A stretch of DNA of 64,000 nucleotides from Candidatus Udaeobacter sp. (GCA_036495045.1 DASXNN010000093.1:27583-91582); one strand, 5' to 3'; shown: positions 654 through 58,417, counted from the stretch's first letter. Translations and numbers: made by a program. The notes: generated from the letters alone by a model not told the origin.

Positions 654-1811
654 TTGCAGACCGCCGCTGCAGTTTCGACTCGCGAATTCAATTACGTGCA
701 TGCTTTGGTAAAAAATATTCGCAAAGAGGAAACGGAGAATGCCGATCGGAAGAATGGCGCCGATCCAATCGAAGCTGCTGAGGAAGCCGGATTGCGGTAT
801 GTCAGCGACAGTCAACCCGGTTACACGCGGAAAGCGAACGGGCAGGGCTTCGAGTATTTCGATACGGATAGAGAACCGATTCGTGACGAACAACGGCTGT
901 TGCGCATCAGTCGTCTCGCCATCCCTCCCGCATGGAGTGGCGTTTGGATTTGCCCTTCACCGAATGGACACATCCAAGCCACCGGCCGCGATGCCCGTGG
1001 CCGCAAACAATATGGTTATCATGAACGTTGGCGAGAAGTTCGGAACGAGGACAAGTACGATCGGATGATTAGCTTCGGAAAAGCGTTGCCGAAAATTAGA
1101 AAACGGGTGAAGAGAGATTTGGCTCTGGCTGGTCTGCAGAGGAGCAAAGTGCTCGGCACAATCGTGCTGCTTCTCGAACAAACGCTCATCCGGGTTGGCA
1201 ATGAAGAGTACGCGCGCGAAAACAACTCGTTCGGTCTCACGACCATGCAAGATCGACATGTGGACGTGGCTGGCTCGAAGCTACGTTTTCGTTTTCGAGG
1301 CAAAAGCGGGCGCGAACATGAAGTGGACGTAACTGATCGCCGCATCGCAAAGATTGTATCCAGATTGCAGGATTTGCCCGGTCAAGATCTGTTTCAATAC
1401 GTCGATGATAACGGGGAGGTGCGCGATATCACTTCCCAAGATGTGAACGAATATCTGCGCGAGATCACTGGCCAGGATTTCACGGCAAAGGATTTTCGCA
1501 CTTGGTCTGGAACAGTGCTCGCCGCCGTTGCGCTCAACGTCGTTGGTGCCTTTGAAACACAGAAGCAAGCTAAAGCCAACGTCAAAAGCGCGATTGGCGC
1601 GGTCGCAAAAATCCTCGGCAACACTCCGGCAGTTTGCCGGAAGTGCTACATCCATCCTGCCGTGCTCGAAACTTATTTAGAGGGAAATTTAATTGAGGGT
1701 TTGCGAAAACGAACGGGCAAAGACCTCGAAAAAAAAGGTGTCGATCTGCGCTTTGCCGAAGCAGCGATTTTAAGATTTTTGGCAACCGGCTTCCGCAAAA
1801 AGGCTGCCTGA
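654..1811 (+). CDS. DNA topoisomerase IB (bacterial poxvirus-like type)
   Basis: 385-aa ORF with LAIPPAWSGVWICPSPNGHIQATGRDARGRKQYGYH, LIRVGNEEYARENNSFGLTTM and FTAKDFRTWSGTV, typical of bacterial TopIB. Start is uncertain: TTG 654, GTG 696 or TTG 705, all in frame. Confidence 0.85.
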   Translation: MQTAAAVSTREFNYVHALVKNIRKEETENADRKNGADPIEAAEEAGLRYVSDSQPGYTRKANGQGFEYFDTDREPIRDEQRLLRISRLAIPPAWSGVWICPSPNGHIQATGRDARGRKQYGYHERWREVRNEDKYDRMISFGKALPKIRKRVKRDLALAGLQRSKVLGTIVLLLEQTLIRVGNEEYARENNSFGLTTMQDRHVDVAGSKLRFRFRGKSGREHEVDVTDRRIAKIVSRLQDLPGQDLFQYVDDNGEVRDITSQDVNEYLREITGQDFTAKDFRTWSGTVLAAVALNVVGAFETQKQAKANVKSAIGAVAKILGNTPAVCRKCYIHPAVLETYLEGNLIEGLRKRTGKDLEKKGVDLRFAEAAILRFLATGFRKKAA

Positions 1812-1824
1812 CAATCAGTAATAT

Positions 1825-2853
1825 CTATTCGCGGGAAAGGCTGCGCTGCGTCGGACTGGGAGTTGGCATGGCCTTTCTGCGTGTGCTCTTGCGGACATTG
1901 ATTGTTTGCCCGGTCGACGCCGTCGTCGAAGCTTGCCGTTGCTCTTGCGGATATTTTTTTGTGCTCGGCCAGATCAAACGCCACGGCTGCGTTTTTATCG
2001 TATCGCTGAATTCCTTGAGGTTTTGGCCGACCGGTCCGAGGTCGGTAACGGTGATTTTTAGCTTTTCCGACGACGCGCGAAGGTTTTGCAGCGTCAGCTC
2101 GATGTTATTATTTTCTGAAAGGCTGGTGCTGATCTTTTCGATGTTGGTAAGCGATTGCGAGAGCGCGCTATCTGGCGCGGTTAGATCGACAAGATGTGTC
2201 CCGAATGTCTTGAACTGACCGATCGCAAGGGTCAGCTCGGAATTTTCGTCGGTCAGGCGGTTCAGATTTTGCGCGGTCTGCTGAAGGTCTTTCATCGTAT
2301 TAGTGGCTTCGGCGGCGACCGGCTTAATGACTTCGAGCATCTTGGCTGCGGCGTCGCCCAGATCGGGAGTGCGTTCGCCAGCAAACATTTCTCCGTCCTT
2401 GGCTCGGCCGGAGCTTTCGGTCCCTTGGGTGATATCAATCGCCATGTCGCCAAGCACTCCAAGCTGCATCAACCGTGCCTTGGCGTCCCGATAAACCCTG
2501 GCGCTTTTATCTACCTGAACGTCGACGCGTACTTCGAATCTCGGCTTGTTCTCAGCCGGAGTGGGGCTGGCGTTTGGTTGAGGCGGGTGAATTGCCGCAT
2601 CGGCTTCCTGTGCGCTTTTCTCTTCTTTGGGCGACACGGGCGAGAATAATTTCTGGACCTGCCCGATTTTTCGGCCCGCCAACATAACCGGTGCGCCAAC
2701 TTTGATTCCGGCGGCGTTGTCAAAATACATTTTGTAGGTCACGAGCGGCCGGAAAAGCCCGGGAGCACCGAGCAGAATGAGAATAAAGACCAAAACAGCC
2801 ACCGTGCCTACCACCAAGACACCGGTCAGTATTTCATTTCTTTGTAATTGCAT
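1825..2853 (-). CDS. mlaD: MlaD/MCE-family substrate-binding protein with a long C-terminal helical extension
   Basis: N-terminal TM helix followed by an MCE-like region (YKMYFDNAAGIKVGAPVMLAGRKIGQVQKL). Overlaps the stop of the upstream ABC ATPase by 20 nt. At 342 aa it is about twice the E. coli MlaD length. Confidence 0.75.
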   Translation of the reverse strand: MQLQRNEILTGVLVVGTVAVLVFILILLGAPGLFRPLVTYKMYFDNAAGIKVGAPVMLAGRKIGQVQKLFSPVSPKEEKSAQEADAAIHPPQPNASPTPAENKPRFEVRVDVQVDKSARVYRDAKARLMQLGVLGDMAIDITQGTESSGRAKDGEMFAGERTPDLGDAAAKMLEVIKPVAAEATNTMKDLQQTAQNLNRLTDENSELTLAIGQFKTFGTHLVDLTAPDSALSQSLTNIEKISTSLSENNNIELTLQNLRASSEKLKITVTDLGPVGQNLKEFSDTIKTQPWRLIWPSTKKYPQEQRQASTTASTGQTINVRKSTRRKAMPTPSPTQRSLSRE

Positions 2854-3604: not shown

Positions 3605-3621
3605 ATGAGAGTTCGATGCGT

Positions 3622-4752: not shown

Positions 4753-5697
4753 ATGCAAACAAAGAATTTTGGACTCGTAGTGCATGGAGGCGCTGGAACG
4801 ATCAAGCGCAGCGAAATGACGTCAGAACGTGAACGCGAATATCGTGCCGGAATCAAGCGCGCTCTGTCGGCGGGTTACGAAATTCTCAAACGCGCCGGAT
4901 CGGGTCTCGACGCCACGGAGGCTGCTGTGCGCGTGTTCGAGGACGATCCGCATTTCAACGCGGGCCGTGGTTCCGTCTTTACGAACAGTGAGACGAATGA
5001 ACTTGATGCCGCTATTATGGACGGCAAAACGCTTGGAGCCGGCGCGGTCGCGAATTTGCGACATATCAAAAACCCGATTCTGCTCGCGCGACTCGTAATG
5101 GAAAAATCGCCGCACGTTATAATGGCCGGCGAAGGCGCGGAAGCCTTCGCGAAAGAAAACGGCATCGAAATTGTCGATCAAAAATATTTTTACACCCGGG
5201 AACGCTGGGATGCTTTGAAAAAAGTGAAAGCGGCAGAGAAAAGCGGCGCACCGGGCAGAAAGAAATTTATCATTTCCGATCAAGATCGACATGGTACCGT
5301 CGGGGCTGTCGCGCTCGATCAAAATGGGAATCTTGCAGCAGCGACTTCAACCGGCGGAACAACCAACAAGCGTGCCGGGCGCGTGGGCGATTCACCAGTC
5401 ATTGGCGCAGGCACTTACGCGAACAATGCGACGTGCGCGGTCTCCGCTACGGGTGATGGGGAGTATTTTATTCGCGCAACCGTCGGGCACGATGTTTCGG
5501 CCCTGATGGAATATCGGGGAATGTCGCTCAAGGAGGCTGCGCAAACGGTTCTTGATAAAGTGGCCAAGCTCGGCGGTACCGGCGGAATGATCGCGATTGA
5601 CCACCAAGGCAACATCGCCCTGCCATTCAATACTTCGGGATTGTACCGAGGCTACGCCGATACAACCGGCAAATTCGTAATCGAGATCTACAAATAG
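4753..5697 (+). CDS. iaaA: isoaspartyl peptidase / L-asparaginase (Ntn hydrolase)
   Basis: VHGGAGT at the N-terminus, autoprocessing-site context HGTVGAVALD, and GGTTNKRAGRVGDSPVIGAGTYA. Confidence 0.85.
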   Translation: MQTKNFGLVVHGGAGTIKRSEMTSEREREYRAGIKRALSAGYEILKRAGSGLDATEAAVRVFEDDPHFNAGRGSVFTNSETNELDAAIMDGKTLGAGAVANLRHIKNPILLARLVMEKSPHVIMAGEGAEAFAKENGIEIVDQKYFYTRERWDALKKVKAAEKSGAPGRKKFIISDQDRHGTVGAVALDQNGNLAAATSTGGTTNKRAGRVGDSPVIGAGTYANNATCAVSATGDGEYFIRATVGHDVSALMEYRGMSLKEAAQTVLDKVAKLGGTGGMIAIDHQGNIALPFNTSGLYRGYADTTGKFVIEIYK

Positions 5698-5702
5698 AGG
5701 AG

Positions 5703-5720: not shown

Positions 5721-5762
5721 AATTAATCGATCACAAGCGAGACGCTTGTGCTATTTCACATC

Positions 5763-6571: not shown

Positions 6572-6592
6572 TCCACTTGAATTATTTCTTCC

Positions 6593-8700: not shown

Positions 8701-11022
8701 CTACTCGCGCAATTCCGCGCCGAGTTCGCGCTGCAAACGCTCGCGAATTCTCGTGTGCGCCGCAGTCACTTCTTCACTGGTCAGTGTGCGACTTCGATCT
8801 CGATATGTCAATCTATATGCAAGCGACTTTTTTGCCTCGCCGAGTTTTTCTGTGAATAAGTCGAACAGCTCAACACTTTCCAGCAGCGGCTCTTTTGGAT
8901 TTTCGATCGCTCGCAAAATTTTTTCGTGCGGAACTTCTTCGGCGAGAATCATCGCAATGTCGCGCGTGACTGCGGGGAATTTTTCCAACTCGGCGAATTT
9001 GGTTCGTTCGTGCTCTTTTAGGAAAAGGTCGGCGTGGAGTTCGGCGACGAAAACAGGTCCGGGAGCGCTCGACTTCGCGGAAGAGAGTTGTCCACCGAAA
9101 CCAATTATTCGCTCGTCGGAATAAATATCCACTGCCAGTGCGAGATCAGGAAATTTTCCCGGGCGGAACGACAAACTTGGAACAACGACATCGAGCGCGC
9201 CCCTGAGATCGAAAAGATCGAGGTGGCGGCTCGTTTGCGATCTCCAATCTGGCGCGGTGGCGACGCTTCCCCAAAGCAAAAGGCCGAGATGGCGCTCTTC
9301 TTTTCCCGACGGGGGAATGAAGGTGCGACCAATTTCGAAAATGGCGACGCGTTCCGCGCCAGCGCGAATGTTTCGATCGAGAACGGCGAGCAAGCCGGCC
9401 AAGATGCTTGGCCGAAGCGCGACGGCATCCTCGCTCAGCGGATTGCGGAGCTCGATCGCGCCTTCGCTGAAGGCGAACCGTTCGCGCGGAAGAAGTTTTG
9501 ATGTGCGCACTTCGTTTAGACCGGCGGCGGCGAGTCGATTTCGCCATGTGGATTCTAAATCGTGCGCGTGATCGGCCGCGCTCGATGGCGAATATCGGCC
9601 GCGCTCGCGACCGGGAATTTTGTTCGCGCCGTAAGCCCGCACGACTTCCTCGATAAGATCGACATCGCGCTGTAAATCGCGGCGGTAGGTCGGAATTTTC
9701 CATTTCGTGATTTTCGCGGCGCTGGTTTTCTTCAGACCAAATCCCTCCAGGATTTCGTCGACGGTTTTCGGTTTGACCGCGACGCCGACGACGCGGTCGC
9801 ATTTTTCATAAGTCAACCAAACGTCGTGCGGATTCGAGGGAACTTTCCCGGCGGTGTGAATTTCCTTTGCCGGACTTCCGCCGGCGATTTCTTGAATCAA
9901 TTCCGTCGCGCGCGCGGATGCGCGAAGGACCATTTCGGGATCAACACCGCGCTCGAAGCGATAACTCGCGTCACTTGGAAGACTCAATTCGCGCGCGGTT
10001 TTCCGAACGCTTGCCGGCAAAAAGTAAGCCGCTTCGAGCAAAATGTTTTTGGTCGAGTCAGTCACGCCGGTTTCCTCGCCGCCCATCACGCCGCCAATTC
10101 CAACTGCGCTCTCTTGATCGGCGACAACGCAGTTGTCCGGCTTCAGCGAATAGGTCTTTCCATCGAGTGCGAGAAATTTCTCTCGATCGCGCGCAAGGCG
10201 CACGTTGATGTGGCCCTTCAATTTGTCAGCATCGAACGCGTGCGTCGGCTGACCAAGCTCGAGCATCACAAAGTTTGAGATGTCGACGATGTTGTTGATC
10301 GAGCGAATTCCGACGCTCTCTATTTTCGACCGCAGCCATTGCGGACTCGCCTCGACTTTCACATTGTCGATCTTGCGCGCGGCGAAAAACGGACATTCGC
10401 GAGTAGAAGTAATTCCGACGCCGGTCTTCCGAACGGGAACTTTTGCGTCGCGTGGCGTTGATTTCAGTTTCTTGCCGGTCAGCGCGGCAATCTCCCGCGC
10501 GAGACCGAAATGACTGAGCAAATCGCCGCGGTTCGGCGTGATCTCGACATCGAGGATCGTATCGCTCGGAAACAAATCGGAAACTGGCGCGCCTACTTTC
10601 GCTTCGGGCGATAAAATCAAAAGCCCGGCAGCGTCCGAACCGAGTCCGAGCTCGATCGCGCTGCAAAGCATTCCTTCGCTTTCAACGCCGCGCAGTTTGC
10701 TTTTGCGAATCTCGGTTCCGTTCGGCAATTTTGTTCCGAGGAGCGCGAGCGGAACTTTGTCGCCAACTTTGTAATTGGTTGCGCCGCAAACTATCTGGCG
10801 CTTCGTTCCGCTGCCGTCATCGACTTCGCAAACGGTGAGACGATCCGCATTTGGATGGCGCGACGCCGCCGTGATCTGCGAGACGATCACGTTATCGATC
10901 TTCGCGCCGCGCGTCTCGATGTTTTCGGTTTCCACGCCGGCGCGGGTCAGTAAATCAGCGATCTCGTCCGGATTTTTTGGAAGATCGACAAATTCGCGCA
11001 GCCAATTGACGGAAAATTTCAT
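8701..11022 (-). CDS. pheT: phenylalanine--tRNA ligase beta subunit
   Basis: Starts MKFSVNWLREFVDL, the canonical PheT N-terminus, at ATG 11022. This forms an ATGA overlap with the pheS stop (11019-11021). The 38 upstream codons of the track ORF are discarded. Confidence 0.95.
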   Translation of the reverse strand: MKFSVNWLREFVDLPKNPDEIADLLTRAGVETENIETRGAKIDNVIVSQITAASRHPNADRLTVCEVDDGSGTKRQIVCGATNYKVGDKVPLALLGTKLPNGTEIRKSKLRGVESEGMLCSAIELGLGSDAAGLLILSPEAKVGAPVSDLFPSDTILDVEITPNRGDLLSHFGLAREIAALTGKKLKSTPRDAKVPVRKTGVGITSTRECPFFAARKIDNVKVEASPQWLRSKIESVGIRSINNIVDISNFVMLELGQPTHAFDADKLKGHINVRLARDREKFLALDGKTYSLKPDNCVVADQESAVGIGGVMGGEETGVTDSTKNILLEAAYFLPASVRKTARELSLPSDASYRFERGVDPEMVLRASARATELIQEIAGGSPAKEIHTAGKVPSNPHDVWLTYEKCDRVVGVAVKPKTVDEILEGFGLKKTSAAKITKWKIPTYRRDLQRDVDLIEEVVRAYGANKIPGRERGRYSPSSAADHAHDLESTWRNRLAAAGLNEVRTSKLLPRERFAFSEGAIELRNPLSEDAVALRPSILAGLLAVLDRNIRAGAERVAIFEIGRTFIPPSGKEERHLGLLLWGSVATAPDWRSQTSRHLDLFDLRGALDVVVPSLSFRPGKFPDLALAVDIYSDERIIGFGGQLSSAKSSAPGPVFVAELHADLFLKEHERTKFAELEKFPAVTRDIAMILAEEVPHEKILRAIENPKEPLLESVELFDLFTEKLGEAKKSLAYRLTYRDRSRTLTSEEVTAAHTRIRERLQRELGAELRE

Positions 11023-12032
11023 GCGAACTGGCGGAGAAATCGCAGATCGTTTTGCGCAAAGAGGCGGAGATCTGGAATGTCGAACAAGATCATCGCGAGA
11101 CGGTCCATGCCGAGACCGAAGGCATAACCGCTCCACTTTTCAGGATCGTAAGCTTTGTCGCCGCGCGCTTTGTTGACCTGTTCGAAAACGGCGGGATGGA
11201 CAACACCCGAGCCGGCGACTTCAATCCATTGCTCGCCGCCTTTGAGAGCTTTTGACCTTACATAAACCTCGAGACTCGGCTCGGTGAACGGAAAATAATG
11301 CGGTCGAAATTGGACGGCTGTATCGGCACCGAACAGTTCGCGCATGAAGAATTCGAGCGTGCCTTTCAAGTCTGCGACACTGACGTTCTCATCGACGTAA
11401 AGACCTTCGATCTGATGAAATTGTGCGCTATGTGTCGCGTCTACCTCATCGCGACGATACGCCGCGCCGGGCGCGATCACTCGAATCGCCGGCCGCGATG
11501 CCTGCATGGCGCGAATTTGCACTGTCGAAGTATGCGTGCGGAGCAATCGGCCGTCGGGTAGATAAAATGTATCCTGCTCGTTACGCGCGGGATGTTCGGG
11601 CGGCGTGTTCAGGGCGTCGAAGCAATGCCATTCGTCCTCAACGTCGGCCCCATCGGCGAGCGCGAAGCCCATTCGACGGAAGATTTCGATCGAGCGCTCG
11701 AGCATTTGGGTAAGCGGATGCAGGGCGCCGATCTCATGCGGCGTTCCGGGCAGTGAGATGTCGATCTTAGCAAGCGCGCCGGTTTCTTTCTGTGATCGGA
11801 ACTGTTGCGCACGCATGTCGATCGTCGCGGTGACAGCGTTCCGGACTTCGTTAAGAAGTTTGCCGACGATCGGCTTCTCTTCCTTGGACAGCGTTTTCAT
11901 TTGCTCGCCCCAGGCCGCGACGCTGCCGCTGCGGCCGAGGTATTTCACTCGGGCAGCTTCGAGCGTCTGCTCGTCGCGCGCAGATTCGATGTCGCGCAGG
12001 GCATCGTCGCGTAGTTCTTCCAGCGGATGCAT
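11019..12032 (-). CDS. pheS: phenylalanine--tRNA ligase alpha subunit
   Basis: 337 aa with class II aaRS motifs (FRPHYFPFTEPS, GSGVVHPAVF, GLGMDRLAM). Confidence 0.95.
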   Translation of the reverse strand: MHPLEELRDDALRDIESARDEQTLEAARVKYLGRSGSVAAWGEQMKTLSKEEKPIVGKLLNEVRNAVTATIDMRAQQFRSQKETGALAKIDISLPGTPHEIGALHPLTQMLERSIEIFRRMGFALADGADVEDEWHCFDALNTPPEHPARNEQDTFYLPDGRLLRTHTSTVQIRAMQASRPAIRVIAPGAAYRRDEVDATHSAQFHQIEGLYVDENVSVADLKGTLEFFMRELFGADTAVQFRPHYFPFTEPSLEVYVRSKALKGGEQWIEVAGSGVVHPAVFEQVNKARGDKAYDPEKWSGYAFGLGMDRLAMILFDIPDLRLFAQNDLRFLRQFA

Positions 12033-12040
12033 GAAACGAA

Positions 12041-12516: not shown

Positions 12517-12598
12517 TTCATTTCGTTCCGAATTGCTTCGGAACTCCTCCTTCAGCGAGCTGTTGTTCCATTGTCGATCTTTCCGGCCTCGCTCGCTG
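12517..12598 (-). promoter_or_regulatory. structured rplT 5' leader: outer 8-bp helix, SD-like AAGGAGGA, GNRA-capped 8-bp hairpin, 17-codon uORF
   Basis: Coordinates are plus strand. Helix CAGCGAGC (12553-12560) pairs with GCTCGCTG (12591-12598). Hairpin at 12525-12544 is GTTCCGAA-GCAA-TTCGGAAC. SD complement at 12545-12552. uORF at 12518-12571 ends 1 nt before the rplT ATG. Confidence 0.35.
12572..12581 (-). repeat. copy of the hyper-abundant 10-mer AAGATCGACA (intergenic, in the rplT leader)
   Basis: Plus strand reads TGTCGATCTT. On the minus strand it reads GGAAAGATCGACAATGG, and the ATG just after it starts the leader uORF. Confidence 0.9.
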
Positions 12599-12784: not shown

Positions 12785-14896
12785 ATGCATTGGCTTACTC
12801 GTTATCGGCTGTTGATCCTGGGGTCGATCTGCGCTTTTTGGACTGGGCTGATTTTGCTTGGCCATTTCTTCTCGGCCACGCCGTTTCTCTCGGTCCCTTG
12901 GCGGGGCGAACAAAGCTTTGAGGATTTGCTCCGGCGGGAGGGCCGAAAAACTGCGCCGCGCAATGATTTCGTTTTTCTCGGGATTGATCAAAGCACCTTG
13001 GAGTTGCCGCCGATGACGGCGGAAGAAATCGCGAACAACCGAGCGTTTCAGTTGATGACCGAGCGGCCGTTCCCGTGGTCGCGCGAAGTTTGGGCGTTGT
13101 TGCTCGACCGTTTGTTCGGGGCGGGGGCGCGCCTGGTCATCTTCGACCTGATGTTTAATCCGCCCAACGATGGTGATCCAGCATTTCATAATGCGCTCGA
13201 TCGTTACAAGGACAAAGTAGTGCTCGGTGCCAATGTGGATATGCAAAACGCCACCAAGCCACAGGTTGTTACGCCAAACGCGATACTGATTCCGCCGCCG
13301 CAGATAGAAGATGATCGCGTTGGCTTCGTGAATTTCTGGCCCGATCCGATCGATGAAAAAATCCGCGCCGTGGCTTATCGGGTGACCGATTGGGAACTCA
13401 GCGGTTTACCGCCGCACCCAGGCGAGGAAATCTTCGAATCTCTTTCTGCGCGCGCTCTAAGGAAAATCGGCCGCGGAGACGACGTACCTCGTGATTTTGG
13501 CGGCCACATGATTCGCTTCACGGACCCGGACGCGTGGGCACCGCGCCCGCTGTACGAAGTTTTTGATCCCAAATTTTGGCATGCCAATTATGCGGACGGC
13601 ACGTTTTTTAAGAACAAAATCGTGATCGTAGGAGCGTCTGCGCAAGTAGAGCACGACGTTGTCGATACGCCGATGAGTCCAACGACATGGGGCCCTACGC
13701 TTCACCTACAGGCAATGGCGGCCGCGCTTGGCCACGAATTTTTGCAGCCTACGCCACCAAACACCGGTCTTGCGTTGGTGGGTGCAGCAGGACTGATCGC
13801 GTGGTCCCTCATCGCCTTTCTGCGCCGCCCGTTGCTTTGCCTTGGCGTGCTGGTTGCAATTACCGTCGCGTATCTTGCCGCGGCGCGATTCCTTTACGAT
13901 AAGACGGGGCTGCTGCTGCTTACGGTGCCGGTCCTGGCCGCTCTGATATTAAGCGGATTATTGTCGCTCGGCTTTGAATACGCCCTCGAGCGGATCGAGA
14001 AATTGCGCACGCGGCGTACGCTCGAACGCTATGTCTCCAAGAATTTGGTGAAGGAAGTTCTTGAGAATCCGGACAGCTACTATGGCCTCCTGCGCGGTGT
14101 ACGCGTGCCGGTAACGATACTGTTCTCAGATTTGATCGGTTTTACCACGTTGTCCGAAAGAGCCGATCCCGAAGCATTGGTCGCACAACTCAATGAGTAT
14201 CTCACCCGTATGACATCAGTTGTTTTCGGCAATGGCGGCACGCTTGATAAATTCATCGGCGACGCAATTATGGCAGTATGGGGGAACGTGCGCAGTTTTG
14301 GTGTCGCGCAGGACGCCAAAAATTGCGTGCGTGCGGCGCTGGCAATGCGGGGCGGGCTGCGGGAGCTTAATGAAAAGTGGCGCGTTGAAGGGCGAATGGG
14401 GCTCGGCATGGGCATCGGTGTCAATCAAGGGGAAGTGATCGTTGGCAATATTGGTTCACAGGAGCGCATGGACCCAACTGTTATTGGCGACTCCGTCAAC
14501 CTGGCATCGCGACTCGAAGGTCTTACTCGAATTTACGGCGTCGATATTTTGGTGGGCGCGACGGCGGCCGAGTTGGTGCGCGACGAGTTTCACCTGCGCT
14601 CGATTGCGCGGGTGCAGGTAAAGGGTAAAACCAAGCCGGTGGATGTCTTCACTCTGATTGGAGCGCGAAATGAAGATGTCGATCGACAACTTCTAAAGTG
14701 GCTCGAGTCATATGAGGAGGGACTCGAGAAGTTCCGGGCGCGTGATTTTACCCAGGCAAAAATCTTGTTCTCGCGGTTCCTTGAGTTCTATCCGGACGAT
14801 CTCCTGGCGCAAACGTATCTGGCGCGCGCTCTCGAATATGAACAGCAACCGCCAGACGAGGCCTGGGACGCGGTCGAGGTGTTTAAGAAGAAATAG
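12785..14896 (+). CDS. CHASE2 sensor domain-containing class III adenylate/guanylate cyclase
   Basis: N-terminal TM helix, large periplasmic CHASE2-like region, then 3 TM helices. Cyclase core shows VTILFSDLIGFTTLSE..LDKFIGDAIMAVWG..VNLASRLE. A C-terminal TPR-like tail follows. Confidence 0.85.
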   Translation: MHWLTRYRLLILGSICAFWTGLILLGHFFSATPFLSVPWRGEQSFEDLLRREGRKTAPRNDFVFLGIDQSTLELPPMTAEEIANNRAFQLMTERPFPWSREVWALLLDRLFGAGARLVIFDLMFNPPNDGDPAFHNALDRYKDKVVLGANVDMQNATKPQVVTPNAILIPPPQIEDDRVGFVNFWPDPIDEKIRAVAYRVTDWELSGLPPHPGEEIFESLSARALRKIGRGDDVPRDFGGHMIRFTDPDAWAPRPLYEVFDPKFWHANYADGTFFKNKIVIVGASAQVEHDVVDTPMSPTTWGPTLHLQAMAAALGHEFLQPTPPNTGLALVGAAGLIAWSLIAFLRRPLLCLGVLVAITVAYLAAARFLYDKTGLLLLTVPVLAALILSGLLSLGFEYALERIEKLRTRRTLERYVSKNLVKEVLENPDSYYGLLRGVRVPVTILFSDLIGFTTLSERADPEALVAQLNEYLTRMTSVVFGNGGTLDKFIGDAIMAVWGNVRSFGVAQDAKNCVRAALAMRGGLRELNEKWRVEGRMGLGMGIGVNQGEVIVGNIGSQERMDPTVIGDSVNLASRLEGLTRIYGVDILVGATAAELVRDEFHLRSIARVQVKGKTKPVDVFTLIGARNEDVDRQLLKWLESYEEGLEKFRARDFTQAKILFSRFLEFYPDDLLAQTYLARALEYEQQPPDEAWDAVEVFKKK
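14677..14688. repeat. perfect 12-nt palindrome TGTCGATCGACA, i.e. two head-to-head motif cores
   Basis: Read directly from the sequence; it lies inside the cyclase CDS. Confidence 0.9.
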
Positions 14897-21851: not shown

Positions 21852-21853
<2 letters not shown>

Positions 21854-21861
21854 GATCGACA
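21852..21861 (+). repeat. copy of the 10-mer AAGATCGACA overlapping the gspE stop codon
   Basis: Context is gca TAAGATCGACAA ctcc, with TAA at 21851-21853. Confidence 0.9.
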
Positions 21862-21871: not shown

Positions 21872-22534
21872 TTATTTAATGCCGCGCAATTCGCGAATTG
21901 TTTCCGCATAGTCTTTAGAGTGAAAGATTGACGTTCCGGCAACAAGGACATTCGCTCCGTTTTGGATGGACAGTCGCGCGGTATCGGCATTGATTCCGCC
22001 ATCGACCTCGATGTCGAGCTTGGCGCCGGTTCTCGTTTTCCAATCGCGCGCTCTCTTTACTTTTTCCATCATCTCAGGTCGAAACGATTGACCGCCAAAG
22101 CCAGGATGGACGGTCATGACGAGTAAGATGTCGATCTTGTCGAGAAACGGTTCGACCGAGTCAAATGACGTCGCGGGGTTTAATGTAAGGCCAGGGTGGC
22201 AACCAGCATCGCGAATTGCGCTTAAAGTTTTTCCGACGTCGTGTTTCGCCTCTCGCTCAACATGAACGGTGATCGAGTGGGCGCCTGCCTTGACAAAGCG
22301 CGGCACGTAATGATCGGGGTGCTCAATCATGAGATGCACATCGAGCGGCAGTTCCGTATTCTTTCGGACAAGATCGACAATTGCCGGGCCGAAGGAAATA
22401 TTATCGACGAAATGTCCATCCATGATGTCGCAGTGAATCCAGTCGGCACCAGCTTTCTCGACGTGCCGGATTTCATCGGCTAATCGCGAGAAATCGGCTG
22501 CGAGGATGGAAGGAGCAACGATGATCTTCTGCAC
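21872..22534 (-). CDS. rpe: ribulose-phosphate 3-epimerase
   Basis: IIVAPSILAADFSRLADEI..HCDIMDGHFVDNISFGP..HLMI..VMTVHPGFGGQSF. Start is uncertain. I chose GTG 22534, which gives the usual length of about 220 aa. ATG 22624 and the track start 22726 would add an atypical Cys-rich extension. Confidence 0.85.
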   Translation of the reverse strand: MQKIIVAPSILAADFSRLADEIRHVEKAGADWIHCDIMDGHFVDNISFGPAIVDLVRKNTELPLDVHLMIEHPDHYVPRFVKAGAHSITVHVEREAKHDVGKTLSAIRDAGCHPGLTLNPATSFDSVEPFLDKIDILLVMTVHPGFGGQSFRPEMMEKVKRARDWKTRTGAKLDIEVDGGINADTARLSIQNGANVLVAGTSIFHSKDYAETIRELRGIK

Positions 22535-29967: not shown

Positions 29968-29975
29968 GATCGACA
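29966..29975 (+). repeat. copy of the 10-mer AAGATCGACA overlapping the OMP stop codon
   Basis: Context is ttc TAAGATCGACAA tcgg, with TAA at 29965-29967. This is the same 12-mer as at the gspE stop. Confidence 0.9.
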
Positions 29976-43653: not shown

Positions 43654-44266
43654 AAACACACATTTTGCGAGCACCCAAGATCGACATCTTGTCGGCGAGG
43701 CGCTCGAAATTCTCGCCGAGTTGTGCGTGCGAATACGCGTCGGACGCGGTTGTGAACCGGATACCCTTTTGGATTGCGAGCTGGATGATGCGGTCGCTCG
43801 GATAAAGTTCGTTGACCGGTTTGCGCCAGGCGATGCCGGGTTTTTCATTGAAGGCGTGGTTTTCCGACCATTTTGTGAGGGCATCCTGCGCTGAGTTCAG
43901 CAGATAAATTTCAATCCGTTGGTCAGTCGGAAACTCGAGCGTGATCGCGCGCTTTGCTTGATTGGTCAAAGTCGCCTTGATTTCCAGCTGCCGGATTTTG
44001 GAGAGCTTGACCGGTTGCGGGGTGACTTGCAGGTCGAGAATAAGCCCGCGCAACTTCGGGTCGTTATACGTTGGGAGTACCTCAGAAGAAGAAAACGGAT
44101 GCAGAATTCGGCCGAACCAGCCTCGTTTCTGCATGATCGTGGTCGTGGCCGGCGCGCTTGCGGGGTCGTTTAAAAGCCAGATATCGTCGGCCGCTCGATT
44201 TTTTGCAGATGTCGATCTTGCGCCGGACCATCGCCTTGCCGATGCATAAGTCCTTAGAAAAACCAC
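43619..44266 (-). CDS. chimeric-looking ORF: BsuPI-like beta-sandwich N-part fused to a PHP histidinol-phosphatase C-terminal remnant
   Basis: ITLEFPTDQRIEIYLLNSAQDALTKWSENHAF fits the BsuPI inhibitor-domain pattern. The last ~72 aa (43619-43837), RKPVNELYPSDRIIQLAIQKGIRFTTASDAYSHAQLGENF, fit the HisJ/HisK C-terminus, with SDAH changed to SDAY. Confidence 0.4.
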   Translation of the reverse strand: MVFLRTYASARRWSGARSTSAKNRAADDIWLLNDPASAPATTTIMQKRGWFGRILHPFSSSEVLPTYNDPKLRGLILDLQVTPQPVKLSKIRQLEIKATLTNQAKRAITLEFPTDQRIEIYLLNSAQDALTKWSENHAFNEKPGIAWRKPVNELYPSDRIIQLAIQKGIRFTTASDAYSHAQLGENFERLADKMSILGARKMCVYAKHKRIEHDV

Positions 44267-46180: not shown

Positions 46181-47227
46181 ATGCCTCCCCTACGAATAGG
46201 TCTGATCGGTTGCGGGCACATGGGCCGCGTTGTCCACCTCAACAGCCTGCGACGATTGCCACAGGTCGAAGTCTTGGCACTGGCTGAGTCGGATGCAGAA
46301 CGCCGAGAGCAAGCAAGCCAGCAGTTCCCGCGAGCTGCGCTATTTTCCGATTATCGCGAACTCCTCGATCGGCCGGAGATTGACGCGACGGTTATCTGCC
46401 TTCCAAACGCACTTCACGCTGAAGCTGCCATCGCCGCGCTGCACAGTGGCAAGCATCTTTATCTGGAAAAGCCGCTGGCCATCAATGTGGAGGATGGCCG
46501 CAAATTGCTCGACGTATGGCGTCGTTCAGGGCGAGTGGGCATGATCGGTTTTAATTACCGATTCAACCAACTCCATCAGCAAGTCCGGCGACATCTTGAA
46601 GCAGGGCGACTCGGCGAGCTGATCGCCGTTCGTTCGGTTTTTACCACCGCGCCCCATCACCTGCCCGAGTGGAGGCAGCGGCGGGCAAGCGGTGGCGGAG
46701 CTCTTTTGGACCTGGCCTCGCATCATGTAGATCTCGTGCGTTTTTGGTTCAATCAGAGACCGCTCGAAGTCCGCGCCACGATCAAATCCGAACGTGTCGA
46801 AGCCGATACCGCAACGCTCGAGTTGCGATTGGCAAACGGCTTGGTAATCCAATCATTCTTTTCCATGAGTTCAATAGATGACGATCGCTTCGAAATCTAT
46901 GGCCGGCGCGGCAAATTGTGTCTCGACCGTTACAATTCTTGGAATGTCGATCTGACGGGTTTAAGACGCGCCTCGGACTCTCTCCGACGTGTTAGGCAAG
47001 CGCTAGCTTGGCTTCCGCGCAGCCGATTCGCCATAAATAAACTGCTCGCCCCCGGACGAGAACCATCTTTCGCCGCGGCCCTCGCACACTTTGTTGTCGC
47101 GGCACAACAGGGACGGCAAACGAGTCCGAATCTTGAAGACGGCTTCCAGAATCTGGCCGTCATAACGGCTGCTGAAGAATCCGCTCGCACCGGTCATTCC
47201 GTACCGCTCGCGCCTTTTCCAGAATGA
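46181..47227 (+). CDS. Gfo/Idh/MocA-family NAD(P)-dependent oxidoreductase
   Basis: Rossmann N-terminus IGLIGCGHMG, then LYLEKPLA and a C-terminal alpha/beta domain. Confidence 0.85.
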   Translation: MPPLRIGLIGCGHMGRVVHLNSLRRLPQVEVLALAESDAERREQASQQFPRAALFSDYRELLDRPEIDATVICLPNALHAEAAIAALHSGKHLYLEKPLAINVEDGRKLLDVWRRSGRVGMIGFNYRFNQLHQQVRRHLEAGRLGELIAVRSVFTTAPHHLPEWRQRRASGGGALLDLASHHVDLVRFWFNQRPLEVRATIKSERVEADTATLELRLANGLVIQSFFSMSSIDDDRFEIYGRRGKLCLDRYNSWNVDLTGLRRASDSLRRVRQALAWLPRSRFAINKLLAPGREPSFAAALAHFVVAAQQGRQTSPNLEDGFQNLAVITAAEESARTGHSVPLAPFPE

Positions 47228-53896: not shown

Positions 53897-53906
53897 AAGA
53901 TCGACA
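53897..53906 (+). repeat. copy of the 10-mer AAGATCGACA in the recA-hydrolase spacer
   Basis: Context is gcgAAGATCGACATGgcg. The last A starts an ATG that opens a 19-codon ORF at 53906-53965. Confidence 0.9.
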
Positions 53907-55576: not shown

Positions 55577-55586
55577 AAGATCGACA
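55577..55586 (+). repeat. copy of the 10-mer AAGATCGACA 2 nt upstream of the alaS start codon
   Basis: Context is ctcAAGATCGACATCATGacc, with the alaS ATG at 55589. Confidence 0.9.
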
Positions 55587-55588
55587 TC

Positions 55589-58417
55589 ATGACCTCGGCC
55601 GAAATCCGCCAATCCTTTCTCGATTTCTTTCACGAGAAACGCCACACCATTGTGCCGTCATCATCGCTGTTGCCGGACGCGCCGAATCTCCTTTTCACGA
55701 ATGCCGGCATGAACCAGTTCGTTCCGATCTTTCTCGGACAACAAAAGCCGCAATGGAATCCACCGCGCGTGGCCGACACTCAGAAATGCATTCGGGCCGG
55801 CGGAAAACATAACGATCTGGAAGACGTCGGGCTCGACACTTATCACCACACCTTTTTCGAGATGCTCGGTAACTGGAGCTTTGACGATTATTTCAAAAGA
55901 GAGGCGATCGAATGGGCGTGGGAATTACTAGTCGAACGTTGGAAATTTCCGGCACAACGACTTTACGCGACGGTTTACAAGCCTGGCCCGGGCGAGCCGA
56001 GTGAGTTCGATCAGGAAGCCTACGATCATTGGGCAACGTTATTTCGCGAAGCCGATCTTGATCCGGCGATTCATGTTCTTAGCAGCGGCAAGGCCGACAA
56101 TTTCTGGATGATGGGCGATACCGGCCCGTGCGGACCGTGCTCGGAGGTCCATATGGATCTCACGCCAGATGGCGATACGCGAGGCGCGCTCGTGAACAAG
56201 GGGGACCCGCGTTGCATCGAGATTTGGAATCTTGTTTTCATCCAGTTTAACGCGAATCCAGACGGCACGTTTAGTCCGCTGCCGCAACGCCACGTCGATA
56301 CCGGAATGGGTTTCGAGCGTGTCACGGCAATCATTCAGGGCACAAAGGATCTGACCGATTTTTCCGGCACAATTTCAAATTACGAGACCGACATTTTCCG
56401 TCCAATCTTCGACGAACTGGAAACACTGAGCGGCAAAAAATATGAATCGACGATTCCGAAATACGGAAGTGCTGGTGACTTTGATCAAGAAAAGATCGAC
56501 ATCGCTTTCCGCGTGATTGCTGATCACATCCGGGCGTTAAGCTTTGCAATCGCGGACGGAATCATTCCGTCAAACGAAGGCCGGGGCTACGTTTTGCGCC
56601 GCGTACTGCGCCGTGCTGTCCGTTACGGCCGCACCCTCGGATTCCACGAGCCATTTTTCTTCAGGCTTATCGATGTCGTCGCAAAGACGATGGGCGACGT
56701 CTTTCCTGAAGTCCGCGCAAGACAATTAAAAATCAAAGAAACGATCCGCTGGGAAGAAGAAGCTTTTAACAGGACACTGGATCGGGGCATTGAAGTATTT
56801 AACAAGACGATAGCGGATCGGGAGAGGCTCAAGCGAATCGTGGATCAGGACAACGAAGGTCGTGATGGATCCGCGCAGGTTATTTTTCCTAGTCGGATCG
56901 TGTTTGAACTTTACGACACGTACGGCTTTCCCCTGGATCTCACCGAACTGATGGCCCGCGAGCAGGGTTTCACTGTAATTGCCGCTGACTTTGAGAAACG
57001 AATGGAAGAACAGCGTGAGCGAGCGCGTAAAGCGCAAAAGAAATCGTCGATCACTGTCCATCACACGCTGGATATTCCGACCAAATTTGTCGGATATGAC
57101 CGGCTAGAAGTCGACGCAAAGTTAATAAAGGTTATCGGGAAATTCGGAAGCGGCGATGAGTGGGGCATCGTTGATGTTTCGCCGTTTTACGCGGAGATGG
57201 GAGGGCAAGTTGGTGACTCTGGCCGGTTAACGTTTTCAGACAGCAGCCGTACTGTTGACGTTCTTAACACGCTTAGACATGGAGAGACCGTCTATCTCCA
57301 GCTTGCTGAGATTGAAGATCGGGCGTGGACATCCGCAGCTGGTGAACCAGTTCATCTCGCGGTCGATAAGAATCGACGTCGTGCCATCGAGGGGCATCAT
57401 ACGGCGACACACCTGCTGCATTGGGCATTGCATGAAGTGGTGTCCCGCGACGCGTCGCAAAAGGGGAGTTATGTCGGGCCCGACAAGTTGACGTTCGATT
57501 TTTCGAGCGCGGCGCTTACGCCGCAACAAAGGCGCGATGTCGAAAAATTGGTAAACGAGAAGATCGCTGAAGATGCGCTGGTTTCATGGACGGAAATTCC
57601 GTACGCCGAAGTGAAGAAGCGCTCCGACATTCAGCAATTCTTTGGCGAAAAGTATGGCGACACAGTGCGTGTGCTTCAGATAGGCGGCGAACCGAAAGCG
57701 CTCAATGGTTACTCTATGGAGCTTTGCGGTGGCACGCACGCGCGGACCACGGGAGAGATCGGGCCTTTCCGAATCGTGAGTGAGTACGCGATCGCAGCTG
57801 GTATTCGGAGAATTGAAGCAGTCGCGGGTGACGCGGCGCGTGCATGGGCAGAAAAGGAAGCTGCGCGCCAAGAGGAAAAATTTGAAGCGCTCACGCGAAA
57901 GAAACCCGACATCGCTGCGTTGCCGGTTTTTGCGGAAACGGCTGAGACGAGTGAACTGCTGAAACAGATCGACGCGCGAGCGGCCCATCTGGAGAAACTT
58001 GAGACCGAGGTCCACGATTGGGAGAAACGAACTGCCAAAGCTGCTGAGGCTGACCTGCAGAGTCGTGCGGCGAAAATTGCGAACGAAATAGTTGAGTCAT
58101 GCGAAAAGAAGAATTTCTGCGTCGCGGAAGTTTCAAACGCGAATGGCAAATTGCTTGGCGCCGTGGCCGATGCCCTGAAGACGAGATTTGAGGGTCCGAT
58201 CTTTCTGGCCGGTGCGATTGATGCAAGAGTGGCGCTCATCGCGTTGGTGCCAAAAGAAATGACTTCAAAGTTTCAGGCGAACAAGTTGATCCAGGAAACG
58301 GCCGCAATTGTGGGCGGCAAAGGCGGCGGTCGGGTTGAATCCGCGCAGGGTGGCGGCACCGAGCCGACGAAAGTCGGTGAAGCGCTTAATCGGGCGAGGG
58401 AGATCCTGGGAGATTGA
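55589..58417 (+). CDS. alaS: alanine--tRNA ligase
   Basis: Start at internal ATG 55589 (MTSAEIRQSFLDFFHEKRHTIVPSSSL, the canonical AlaRS N-terminus). Editing-domain HxxxH (HTATHLLH), CGGTH, and a C-terminal DHHA1 domain. Confidence 0.98.
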   Translation: MTSAEIRQSFLDFFHEKRHTIVPSSSLLPDAPNLLFTNAGMNQFVPIFLGQQKPQWNPPRVADTQKCIRAGGKHNDLEDVGLDTYHHTFFEMLGNWSFDDYFKREAIEWAWELLVERWKFPAQRLYATVYKPGPGEPSEFDQEAYDHWATLFREADLDPAIHVLSSGKADNFWMMGDTGPCGPCSEVHMDLTPDGDTRGALVNKGDPRCIEIWNLVFIQFNANPDGTFSPLPQRHVDTGMGFERVTAIIQGTKDLTDFSGTISNYETDIFRPIFDELETLSGKKYESTIPKYGSAGDFDQEKIDIAFRVIADHIRALSFAIADGIIPSNEGRGYVLRRVLRRAVRYGRTLGFHEPFFFRLIDVVAKTMGDVFPEVRARQLKIKETIRWEEEAFNRTLDRGIEVFNKTIADRERLKRIVDQDNEGRDGSAQVIFPSRIVFELYDTYGFPLDLTELMAREQGFTVIAADFEKRMEEQRERARKAQKKSSITVHHTLDIPTKFVGYDRLEVDAKLIKVIGKFGSGDEWGIVDVSPFYAEMGGQVGDSGRLTFSDSSRTVDVLNTLRHGETVYLQLAEIEDRAWTSAAGEPVHLAVDKNRRRAIEGHHTATHLLHWALHEVVSRDASQKGSYVGPDKLTFDFSSAALTPQQRRDVEKLVNEKIAEDALVSWTEIPYAEVKKRSDIQQFFGEKYGDTVRVLQIGGEPKALNGYSMELCGGTHARTTGEIGPFRIVSEYAIAAGIRRIEAVAGDAARAWAEKEAARQEEKFEALTRKKPDIAALPVFAETAETSELLKQIDARAAHLEKLETEVHDWEKRTAKAAEADLQSRAAKIANEIVESCEKKNFCVAEVSNANGKLLGAVADALKTRFEGPIFLAGAIDARVALIALVPKEMTSKFQANKLIQETAAIVGGKGGGRVESAQGGGTEPTKVGEALNRAREILGD

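What the first reader, a model, noticed from the sequence alone, without database searches (positions are those of the whole stretch)
1249..56501. Hyper-abundant DNA motif AAGATCGACA(A/T): at least 18 exact copies in 64 kb, independent of frame, strand and coding status
A manual scan finds the exact 10-mer on the plus strand starting at 1249, 5282, 9655, 10981, 15869, 21852, 22370, 29966, 43677, 53897, 55577 and 56492. Its complement TGTCGATCTT starts at 10365, 11759, 12572, 15090, 22129 and 44210. That makes 18 copies, and the next base is always A or T. A given 10-mer is expected about 0.1 times in 2 x 64,000 positions (128,000 / 4^10); base composition could change this only a few-fold. The 9-mer AGATCGACA occurs six further times, at 2183, 32267 and 35269 (+) and at 1739, 46945 and 63432 (-). 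By my count the 8-mer core GATCGACA occurs about 35 times against about 2 expected. This count includes the perfect palindrome TGTCGATCGACA at 14677-14688. The copies fall in many contexts. It encodes K-I-D-I/N in pheT, pheS, mpl, rpe and alaS. It encodes V-D-L when antisense in pheT and rpe, and Q-D-R-H in topoisomerase IB and iaaA. It encodes M-S-I-F/L in mpl and the 43.6-kb ORF, and R-S-T in the 44.2-kb ORF. It also lies in non-coding DNA: the rplT leader, the recA spacer and the alaS 5' region. Flanks show no extended similarity, so these are not copies of a longer mobile repeat. The motif therefore seems selected at the DNA level. Its statistics resemble DNA-uptake sequences (Neisseria DUS, Pasteurellaceae USS) or hyper-abundant oligomers such as cyanobacterial HIP1 (GCGATCGC). 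Like HIP1 it contains a GATC core, and here also TCGA. The window also encodes a secretin, a GspE/PilB-type ATPase and recA, but any link to DNA uptake is speculation. Orientation is 12 plus to 6 minus, so there is no strict strand polarity here.
Basis: partly seen in the sequence, partly recalled or inferred. Interest (0 to 1): 0.8.

Follow-up and report, generated by a model that had tools for sequence, protein, structure and literature searches.

The report
Hyper-abundant DNA word in soil Verrucomicrobia
The 11-base word AAGATCGACA(A/T) really is about 100 times too frequent in this soil verrucomicrobial chromosome and its relatives; it is kept at the DNA level even at the cost of changing proteins, as DNA-uptake tags are in Neisseria and Haemophilus, but its function has not been tested.

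Summary
AAGATCGACA occurs 18 times (12+, 6-) at exactly the reported coordinates, against 0.1-0.5 expected. It is always followed by A or T.

The window comes from a Chthoniobacterales / 'Candidatus Udaeobacter'-like soil bacterium. The same word is the top 10-mer in many related MAGs. Its density follows the phylogeny: about 1.5 per kb in one clade, 0.15-0.5 per kb in the window's clade, and near zero in most Udaeobacter.

The pressure acts on DNA:
- Density is equal in coding and intergenic DNA.
- There is no strand, transcription or replication polarity.
- Copies are 8-17 times more frequent than synonymous-codon shuffles predict.
- In dense lineages 95% of K-I-D and V-D-L tripeptides use the motif's codons.
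- New sites arose through amino-acid replacements.
- Sites are almost perfectly conserved between motif-bearing lineages, although synonymous positions are near saturation. They are not conserved towards motif-poor lineages.

Same-strand pairs prefer a spacing of 15-16 bp.

The word is not a mobile repeat, a peptide or codon effect, or a Chi/KOPS-type sequence. The best reading (about 0.4) is a self-recognition tag for DNA uptake. A HIP1-like binding-site array is nearly as likely. I found no report of this word.

The parts
1249..1258 (+). motif copy in the topoisomerase IB CDS (654-1811), sense frame +1, encodes Q-D-R-H
5282..5291 (+). motif copy in the Asparaginase_2 (isoaspartyl peptidase) CDS 4753-5697, encodes Q-D-R-H; exact in the clade A orthologue
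9655..9664 (+). motif copy antisense in pheT (8701-11136, minus strand), encodes D-V-D-L; site RDVDLI carries the exact word in 33 of 81 loci
10365..10374 (-). motif copy sense in pheT, encodes K-I-D-N; site RKIDNV carries the exact word in 36 of 81 loci
10981..10990 (+). motif copy antisense in pheT, encodes F-V-D-L; site EFVDLP carries the exact word in 47 of 81 loci
11759..11768 (-). motif copy sense in pheS (11019-12032, minus strand), encodes K-I-D-I
12572..12581 (-). intergenic copy, 56 nt upstream of the rplT start (12516)
15090..15099 (-). motif copy antisense in mpl (Mur ligase, 14960-16354), encodes M-S-I-F within the conserved PPMSIFLE segment
15869..15878 (+). motif copy sense in mpl, encodes K-I-D-N
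21852..21861 (+). copy overlapping the TAA stop codon of the GspE/PilB-type ATPase gene (20105-21853)
22129..22138 (-). motif copy sense in rpe (21872-22726, minus strand), encodes K-I-D-I
22370..22379 (+). motif copy antisense in rpe, encodes I-V-D-L
29966..29975 (+). copy overlapping the TAA stop codon of the outer-membrane beta-barrel gene (29269-29967)
43677..43686 (+). motif copy antisense in ORF 43619-44266 (minus strand), encodes M-S-I-L
44210..44219 (-). motif copy sense frame +2 in ORF 43619-44266, encodes A-R-S-T
53897..53906 (+). intergenic copy 13 nt after the recA stop codon; not inside a predicted terminator hairpin
55577..55586 (+). copy at the 5' end of alaS; encodes K-I-D-I in the ORF as called from TTG 55436, but the true start is uncertain
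56492..56501 (+). motif copy sense in alaS, encodes K-I-D-I
14677..14688 (.). palindrome TGTCGATCGACA: two 8-mer cores overlapping head to head through GATC
2183..2191 (+). 9-mer AGATCGACA, a one-off variant at position 1
32266..32274 (+). 9-mer AGATCGACA variant
35269..35277 (+). 9-mer AGATCGACA variant
1739..1747 (-). 9-mer AGATCGACA variant
46945..46953 (-). 9-mer AGATCGACA variant
63432..63440 (-). 9-mer AGATCGACA variant

Best explanation
AAGATCGACA(A/T) is a chromosome-wide tag on double-stranded DNA. A sequence-specific protein of this Chthoniobacterales lineage recognises it, and a process that sees DNA, not RNA or protein, maintains it. The most likely mechanism is that of a DNA-uptake-enhancing sequence. 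A surface DNA receptor would prefer fragments that carry the word. Homologous recombination of the imported DNA would then spread word-bearing alleles, a molecular drive. The word would accumulate wherever coding constraints allow, bend codon choice and some amino acids, and be protected from decay. In lineages where the receptor is weak or lost, it would decay neutrally.

Shown here: the excess, DNA-level maintenance, lack of polarity, a clade-structured density, and site conservation only among motif-bearing lineages. Inferred: recognition by a protein, and that the process is uptake plus recombination.
For: - Excess: 18 copies against 0.1-0.5 expected in the window. There are 399 copies in 1.42 Mb of window plus 80 related loci. 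Four loci reach 1.1-1.9 per kb (120 copies in 78.7 kb, about 1.6% of the DNA). That is the range given for DUS/USS: 9-10 nt, hundreds to thousands of copies, up to about 2% of the chromosome (10.1101/2025.10.24.684340).
- DNA level: observed copies in CDS against synonymous-codon shuffles are 14 vs 1.75 (window), 98 vs 5.8 and 80 vs 5.6. In dense loci 96% of KID is AAGATCGAC (11% expected) and 95% of VDL is GTCGATCTT (2.6% expected). KID and VDL are themselves 6.1-fold and 4.7-fold over-represented. Independent copies have the same density in coding and intergenic DNA, 0.47 vs 0.46 per kb.
- Both orientations: sense 177 vs antisense 166. G-rich strand 119 vs C-rich strand 112.
- Sharp specificity: 120 exact copies against 33 for all 30 one-mismatch words together.
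- Frame bias towards tolerated peptides, as described for USS (PMC2817400, title and abstract as listed; paper not read).
- Gains by point substitution with amino-acid replacement, without indels: PIADLF to PIVDLF, VVTA to VVDL, NPDE to KIDN.
- Maintenance only where the system seems active. Window to L072: 8 of 8 sites exact, against 6% of other 10-nt windows; third-codon-position identity 25/25 inside the motif against 0.53 outside. L079 to the motif-poor L061: 1 of 20 sites exact, third-position identity 23/44.
- Density follows the PheT phylogeny.
- No motif-rich viral contig was found among 2.9 million.
Against: - Natural competence is not known for Verrucomicrobia. No receptor, pilin or com gene was identified.
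- About half of DUS/USS lie in terminators, often as inverted pairs. Here there are no inverted-pair terminators, and the intergenic density is not raised.
- No depletion was seen in genes with atypical codon usage or in rarely shared genes.
- No dialects were seen.
- I know of no counterpart in DUS/USS for the preferred 15-16 bp spacing of same-strand pairs.
- Site conservation fits selection for a function on the chromosome itself equally well.
Confidence: 0.4

Rival explanations
1. HIP1-like case. The word is the binding site of an abundant intracellular DNA-binding or DNA-modifying protein, for example a nucleoid organiser or an orphan methyltransferase partner. Ordinary selection keeps it for a function on the chromosome itself.
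For: - Sites are conserved between genomes far above background. This is the argument used for HIP1 (PMC5861425).
- Coding and intergenic densities are equal and density is flat along genes.
- The 15-16 bp preference of same-strand pairs, in all frames, suggests a fixed protein footprint or cooperative binding.
- The word contains GATC, as HIP1 does.
- Density varies from none to very high among related lineages, as for HIP1.
Against: - The word is not a palindrome.
- No candidate protein is known.
- Spacing between copies is Poisson-like at the kb scale.
- Selection for thousands of individually dispensable sites is hard to sustain without a drive.
- The function of HIP1 is itself unknown, so this reading gives no mechanism.
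Confidence: 0.3
2. Neutral replenishment. A sequence-biased repair, gene-conversion or templated-mutagenesis process converts near-matches into exact copies, for example a mismatch-specific nuclease tied to a long recognition site, or recombination with an abundant short DNA. The word itself would have no function.
For: - Exact copies vastly outnumber one-mismatch words.
- The word invades conserved proteins against amino-acid conservation.
- Density is the same in core and rarely shared genes and in coding and non-coding DNA. This is expected for a process blind to function.
Against: - Known very-short-patch repair systems act on 4-6 bp contexts and give only modest enrichment (my own knowledge).
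- No Vsr, methyltransferase or retron gene lies in the window.
- GATC and TCGA outside the word are at expectation, O/E 1.0-1.1.
- The pair spacing preference is not explained.
Confidence: 0.15
3. Self-mark for a defence or DNA-surveillance system. A nuclease or translocase would spare DNA that carries the word, modified or not, at sufficient density. This would be an orientation-independent analogue of Chi.
For: - Genome-wide, roughly random spacing at 0.3-2 per kb in both orientations.
- The word was not found at high density in viral contigs.
Against: - No such system is known.
- There are no defence genes in the window.
- Phages would be expected to mimic the mark.
Confidence: 0.08
4. By-product of protein or translation-level selection: favoured peptides K-I-D and V-D-L, or codon-pair bias.
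For: 76% of coding copies lie in two codon-aligned frames, K-I-D-x and x-V-D-L.
Against: - The other four frames are also used.
- Intergenic density equals coding density.
- Copies are 8-17 times more frequent than synonymous-codon shuffles with the protein sequence fixed.
- Motif codons are used in 95% of cases against 3-11% expected.
- The antisense frame cannot be explained by the same peptide.
Confidence: 0.02
5. Polar chromosomal signal (Chi, KOPS/SRS) or fragments of a dispersed mobile repeat (REP, MITE).
For: Short over-represented words of 8 nt are typical of Chi and KOPS.
Against: - No polarity: 119 vs 112 relative to GC skew, 177 vs 166 relative to transcription.
- Flanks carry no information beyond +11, and copies sit in frame in conserved proteins without indels.
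Confidence: 0.02

Closest known systems
DNA uptake sequences of Neisseriaceae (DUS, GCCGTCTGAA and dialects; receptor ComP)
   Same: - A non-palindromic word of about 10-12 nt at roughly 1 per kb, up to about 1.6% of the DNA.
- Both orientations.
- Present in coding and non-coding DNA.
- Exact copies far outnumber one-off variants.
- Lineage-restricted.
- Sites arise by point substitution.
   Different: - No inverted pairs forming terminators.
- No intergenic enrichment.
- No dialects detected.
- Different phylum, with no evidence of competence or of a ComP-like pilin.
- Same-strand pairs prefer 15-16 bp.
Uptake signal sequences of Pasteurellaceae (USS, AAGTGCGGT / ACAAGCGGT)
   Same: - Mostly intragenic.
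- Strong reading-frame bias towards tolerated peptides.
- The proteome is bent by the motif (Findlay & Redfield, PMC2817400).
- A sharp core followed by a weak flank preference.
   Different: - No AT-rich, helically phased flank.
- No terminator pairs.
- Function and receptor untested.
HIP1 (GCGATCGC) of cyanobacteria
   Same: - 15- to 300-fold excess.
- A GATC-containing core.
- Sites conserved between genomes beyond background.
- Found inside and between genes.
- Abundance varies greatly among related lineages.
- Function unknown (PMC5861425, PMC4390886).
   Different: - HIP1 is an 8-bp palindrome; this word is an asymmetric 11-mer.
- A link to orphan methyltransferases, and long-range periodicity, could not be tested here.
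Chi and KOPS/SRS (polar 'architecture-imparting' words)
   Same: A short over-represented chromosomal word recognised by a DNA-processing protein.
   Different: Those words are strongly co-oriented with replication. This word shows no strand polarity and is 10-100 times denser than they usually are (my own knowledge).

Membership tests
DNA uptake enhancing sequences (DUS/USS) | Non-palindromic word of about 9-12 nt at hundreds to thousands of copies per genome (about 1 per kb) | tested here: met
   0.28 per kb in the window. Relatives reach 1.1-1.9 per kb and metagenome contigs up to 2.6 per kb. Whole-genome counts were not possible.
DNA uptake enhancing sequences (DUS/USS) | Both orientations, no replication or transcription polarity | tested here: met
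   119 vs 112 relative to GC skew; 177 sense vs 166 antisense.
DNA uptake enhancing sequences (DUS/USS) | Intragenic copies biased to permissive reading frames; the motif shapes codon and peptide usage | tested here: met
   Frame counts. Codon and tripeptide excess. Amino-acid replacements.
DNA uptake enhancing sequences (DUS/USS) | Many intergenic copies, often inverted pairs acting as terminators (about half of DUES lie in terminators) | tested here: not met
   13% of copies are intergenic against 12% non-coding DNA. Density is 0.46 vs 0.47 per kb. There are almost no inverted pairs and none in terminators.
DNA uptake enhancing sequences (DUS/USS) | [quoted passage not shown] | tested here: inconclusive
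   No relation to codon typicality or to gene sharing. Only 2 of 18 copies lie in 30-53.8 kb of the window, which includes the polysaccharide cluster. No prophage or IS element was available to test.
DNA uptake enhancing sequences (DUS/USS) | Related lineages carry dialects of the word | tested here: inconclusive
   The same exact word is used in all motif-bearing clades. No convincing alternative word was found in motif-poor loci of about 20 kb each.
DNA uptake enhancing sequences (DUS/USS) | The organism is naturally competent, and a receptor (a minor pilin such as ComP) binds the word and biases uptake | not testable with these tools
   The lineage is uncultured. The window has a GspD-like secretin and a GspE/PilB-like ATPase, both below the family cut-offs. 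No pilin was found in 2.1 Mb of held DNA by a leader-motif search.
HIP1-type highly iterated palindromes | Palindromic 8-mer | tested here: not met
   AAGATCGACAW is asymmetric. Only the inner GATC and TCGA are palindromes.
HIP1-type highly iterated palindromes | 15- to 300-fold excess, with sites conserved between genomes beyond background | tested here: met
   35- to 180-fold over Markov order 0-4 expectations. Orthologous sites are 59-100% conserved against 6-26% for other 10-nt windows.
HIP1-type highly iterated palindromes | Co-occurrence with orphan methyltransferases for the inner sites; long-range periodicity | not testable with these tools
   This needs complete genomes and methylomes.
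Chi / KOPS polar words | Strong co-orientation with replication | tested here: not met
REP / MITE dispersed repeats | A longer conserved unit, mostly intergenic, inserted as a block | tested here: not met
   No flank conservation. Copies lie in frame in conserved genes without indels.

The most novel reading that the evidence does not exclude
This is the first self-recognition DNA-uptake sequence outside the Pseudomonadota. It operates in the Udaeobacter-related Chthoniobacterales, among the most abundant soil bacteria, through a receptor that reads an 11-bp word and binds tandem sites 15-16 bp apart. That would imply frequent natural transformation biased towards kin DNA in an uncultured soil lineage. 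If it is not uptake, it is a new kind of chromosomal self-mark read by a surveillance or nucleoid protein.
Probability: 0.35. Interest if true: 0.88.

Novelty: new variant of a known kind. Interest (0 to 1): 0.72.

Why it matters
Hyper-abundant short words that override codon choice and even protein sequence are known from very few lineages: DUS in Neisseriaceae, USS in Pasteurellaceae and HIP1 in cyanobacteria. In the first two they reveal a whole biology, kin-biased natural transformation.

Here the same signature appears in another phylum, in relatives of 'Candidatus Udaeobacter', a dominant and uncultured soil group. This gives three things:
- A testable hypothesis about how these bacteria exchange or mark DNA.
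- A comparative handle for finding the recognising protein, because density ranges from about 0 to 2 per kb among relatives that use the identical word.
- A practical marker for binning contigs, and for telling host DNA from foreign DNA, in soil metagenomes.

The 15-16 bp pair geometry is a concrete constraint on any candidate protein.

Tried and rejected
- Longer repeat: the flank logos carry no information beyond +11. Rejected.
- Peptide or codon explanation: rejected by synonymous shuffles, codon fractions and the intergenic density.
- Replication or transcription polarity (Chi/KOPS): rejected.
- Even spacing: inter-copy distances have a random-like coefficient of variation.
- Inverted-pair terminators: none found.
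- Dialects in motif-poor relatives: a few recurrent words, but nothing convincing in 20-kb samples.
- Degenerate partner half-site next to single copies: none.
- Close pairs as recent tandem duplications: spacer against downstream identity is not significant.
- Position along genes: flat in independent copies. The apparent 5' peak in the first data set came from orthologous PheT sites counted many times.
- Start-codon role of the reverse complement ATGTCGATCTT: only a few copies are at real starts; the mpl copy is internal.
- Depletion in atypical or rarely shared genes: not seen. The 'mid' comparison is invalid because only the window extends beyond the shared neighbourhood.
- Restriction-type avoidance or enrichment of GATC and TCGA: O/E is 1.0-1.1.
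- Viral contigs: the double-motif scan returned unrelated tandem repeats only.
- Population-level test with near-identical contigs (99.98% and 98.6% identity): too few differences to use.
- Pilin search by leader motif in held DNA: nothing.
- Literature: no paper mentions this word as a genomic motif, or competence in Udaeobacter.

Full report
**1. The observation**

One hundred dinucleotide-preserving shuffles give a mean of 0.18 and never more than 2. Markov expectations of order 0 to 4 are 0.10 to 0.52. The word is the most frequent 10-mer in the window.

The next base is T in 11 copies and A in 7. Beyond that the flanks carry almost no information. The extra 9-mers (six; one is at 32266, not 32267), the 35 copies of GATCGACA and the palindrome at 14677-14688 are also confirmed. 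Two copies are intergenic (12572, upstream of rplT; 53897, after recA). Two overlap TAA stop codons (21852, 29966).

**2. Where the window comes from**

The window is ordinary core chromosome. Pfam identifies topoisomerase IB, mlaDEF, an asparaginase-family peptidase, carA, rplT-pheS-pheT, a CHASE2 cyclase, mpl, a secretin and a GspE/PilB-type ATPase. It also identifies rpe, mreBC, PBP2, RNase G, dnaG, rpoD, ribD, a glycosyltransferase and flippase cluster, recA and alaS.

A scan of one genome per GTDB species with PheT returned 80 loci. Nearly all are titled Verrucomicrobiota, Chthoniobacterales or 'Candidatus Udaeobacter' soil MAGs, at 68-85% PheT identity (lineage). One (L021) is titled Candidatus Dormiibacterota. 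Near-identical contigs (99.98%) exist in JGI and Logan assemblies.

**3. The word is a lineage trait with very different intensities**

In these 80 loci plus the window (1.42 Mb) there are 399 exact copies, and the word is the top 10-mer in many loci. Outside pheT, density follows the PheT tree:
- One clade reaches 0.9-1.5 per kb (L072, L044, L079, L074), with relatives at 0.3-0.6.
- The window's clade has 0.15-0.5 per kb, with one subclade near zero.
- The large clade holding most 'Udaeobacter' MAGs has 0-0.1 per kb.

In the four densest loci, 120 copies in 78.7 kb make up about 1.6% of the DNA.

Of these, 75 are non-redundant with 53-60% G+C and motif-rich: 0.49 per kb after removing the ascertained pair, and up to 2.6 per kb. 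Hits at other G+C contents are unrelated tandem repeats. The same scan of 2.9 million viral contigs found only unrelated tandem repeats and no motif-rich virus.

**4. The pressure acts on DNA**

- With protein sequence and per-gene codon usage held fixed, synonymous shuffles predict far fewer copies than observed in CDS: 1.75 predicted vs 14 observed in the window, 5.8 vs 98 in the dense loci, and 5.6 vs 80 in intermediate loci.
- In dense loci 96% of K-I-D tripeptides are written AAGATCGAC (11% expected from codon usage), and 95% of V-D-L are written GTCGATCTT (2.6% expected). Those tripeptides are themselves 6.1-fold and 4.7-fold more common than amino-acid composition predicts.
- All six frames are used. 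K-I-D-x (sense) and x-V-D-L (antisense) dominate.
- In the independent metagenome sample, coding and intergenic densities are equal (0.47 and 0.46 per kb), and copies are spread evenly along genes.
- Orientation is unrelated to transcription (177 sense, 166 antisense) or to GC skew (119 vs 112).
- The word is sharply defined. In dense loci there are 120 exact copies against 33 for all thirty one-mismatch words together. The 3' part, ATCGACA, tolerates loss of the 5' bases best.
- GATC and TCGA outside the word are at expectation.

**5. How sites arise and persist**

A codon alignment of PheT shows three sites (EFVDLP, RKIDNV, RDVDLI) that carry the exact word in 33-47 of 81 loci. Further sites in the dense clade were created by amino-acid replacement without indels, for example PIADLF to PIVDLF and FPDLA to HVDLA. 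Genome-pair comparisons add VVTA to VVDL, NPDE to KIDN and ELTT to KIDN.

Between motif-bearing lineages the sites are almost perfectly conserved:
- Window to L072: 8 of 8.
- L072 to L079: 15 of 17.
- L079 to L044: 17 of 18.

Only 6-26% of other 10-nt windows are conserved in the same pairs. Third-codon-position identity is 25/25 and 55/57 inside the motif against 0.53-0.63 outside.

Towards a motif-poor lineage, conservation falls to background: 1 of 20 sites, and 23 of 44 third positions. The word is therefore actively maintained where it is abundant, including in the window's lineage, and drifts where it is not.

**6. Arrangement**

Distances between copies look random at the kb scale. There are virtually no inverted pairs and no terminator association.

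Same-strand pairs closer than 40 bp show a strong and unexpected preference. In the full set of 120 loci, 15 bp occurs 47 times, 16 bp 12 times and 17 bp 5 times. The next most frequent distance, 33 bp (12 cases), comes largely from tandem repeats outside the lineage. In the non-redundant lineage set the counts are 38, 14 and 3, and no other distance exceeds 5. Distances of 12 and 18 bp occur twice or less in both sets.

The pairs lie in about 45 different contexts and in all frames. A spacing of 16 bp cannot be in frame, and 12 or 18 bp would be equally possible in frame. Many 15-bp pairs encode (M/L)SILxLSI(L/F) in N-terminal hydrophobic segments. The pairs are not recent tandem duplications, and single copies have no degenerate partner. 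I read this as the footprint or cooperative geometry of a bound protein. That is an inference.

**7. Interpretation**

Mobile repeats, peptide or codon effects, and polar signals such as Chi or KOPS are excluded by the tests above.

What remains is a protein-read DNA tag. The only established mechanism that produces such words is biased DNA uptake followed by recombination. DUS and USS are 9-10 nt, occur in hundreds to thousands of copies and take up to about 2% of a chromosome. The asymmetry, the density, both orientations, the frame bias, proteome bending, gains by point substitution, lineage restriction and neutral decay where the system seems absent all fit this reading.

Several points do not fit. 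There is no terminator or inverted-pair class (about half of DUS/USS). There is no intergenic enrichment, no detectable depletion in atypical genes and no dialects. There is no evidence of competence. The window's secretin and ATPase score below the cut-offs for both GspD/GspE and PilQ/PilB, and no pilin was found in the DNA I hold.

The HIP1 precedent (conserved, in genes and between them, GATC core, function unknown) is nearly as good a match, except that HIP1 is a palindrome. A biased repair or conversion process and a defence-type self-mark cannot be excluded.

My estimates are uptake tag 0.4, intracellular binding-site array 0.3, biased repair 0.15 and self-mark for surveillance 0.08.

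**8. Novelty**

Full-text searches found no paper that treats this word as a genomic motif. None reports uptake sequences or competence in Udaeobacter or Verrucomicrobia. A current survey states that uptake sequences are known in two families only.

I class this as a new variant of a known kind, a hyper-abundant genomic word, in a new phylum. Its features are the 11-bp asymmetric word, equal coding and intergenic density, and 15-16 bp tandem geometry. Its function is still to be shown.

Noticed in passing
window 38110-49530: A block of ribD plus glycosyltransferase and polysaccharide genes has clearly atypical codon usage: score per codon 0.05-0.09 against 0.13-0.2 elsewhere. It may be a variable or acquired surface-polysaccharide island. 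Only 2 of the 18 motif copies lie between 30 and 53.8 kb.
   Followed up: partly
window 21851-21861 and 29965-29975: Two motif copies overlap TAA stop codons as TAAGATCGACA. This 11-mer occurs 4 times in the window. Gene ends seem to be one of the permissive places.
   Followed up: partly
window, e.g. 9575, 9598, 15040, 27800, 55038, 57504, 62140: Other words are mildly over-represented without shared flanks: CGAGCGCGGC (7 copies), CGAAAAATCG (6) and GCCGGCGGAA (6). CGAGCGCGGC is also among the top words in several related loci (L031, L056, L068).
   Followed up: partly
L053, L058, L060, L037, L065 (AGCGAAGTCGA); L035, L058, L063, L065, L068, L009 (AATGACGAA); L039, L040 (GTCATYCCGA); L003, L020, L034, L067, L076 (CGCTTCAACG-like): Motif-poor Udaeobacter loci show other recurrent 9-11-mers, 4-7 copies per 20 kb. 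These may belong to a REP-like dispersed element or to other over-represented words.
   Followed up: no
L085 2816-2841, L093 1760-1785 (IMG/VR contigs, 67-68% G+C): Two high-GC viral contigs each carry a direct pair CAAGATCGACAC-N4-CAAGATCGACAAC with the same 16-bp spacing seen in the verrucomicrobial pairs. L085 has 5 copies of the word in 13 kb. This could be an operator or iteron, or chance.
   Followed up: no
window 17134-21853: The secretin (N0 domain plus three Secretin_N domains), a peptidoglycan-binding protein and a GspE/PilB-type ATPase with an MshEN (c-di-GMP-binding type) domain lie together, with no pilin, PilC or PilMNO genes nearby. The scores fall below the NCBIfam cut-offs for both type II secretion and type IV pilus models.
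   Followed up: partly
pheT, window about 10975-10995 and orthologues: The 18-mer GAATTTGTCGATCTTCCA (EFVDLP) is identical in 29 of 81 loci, although synonymous sites are otherwise saturated. This includes motif-poor lineages. Conservation extends beyond the 10-mer, so another constraint may act there.
   Followed up: no
L239-L242: Contigs 98.2-99.98% identical to window 2130-17216 exist in JGI samples 3300036845 and 3300036798, in Logan SRR11835593 and in ENA ERZ27259962. The organism therefore recurs in several metagenomes.
   Followed up: partly
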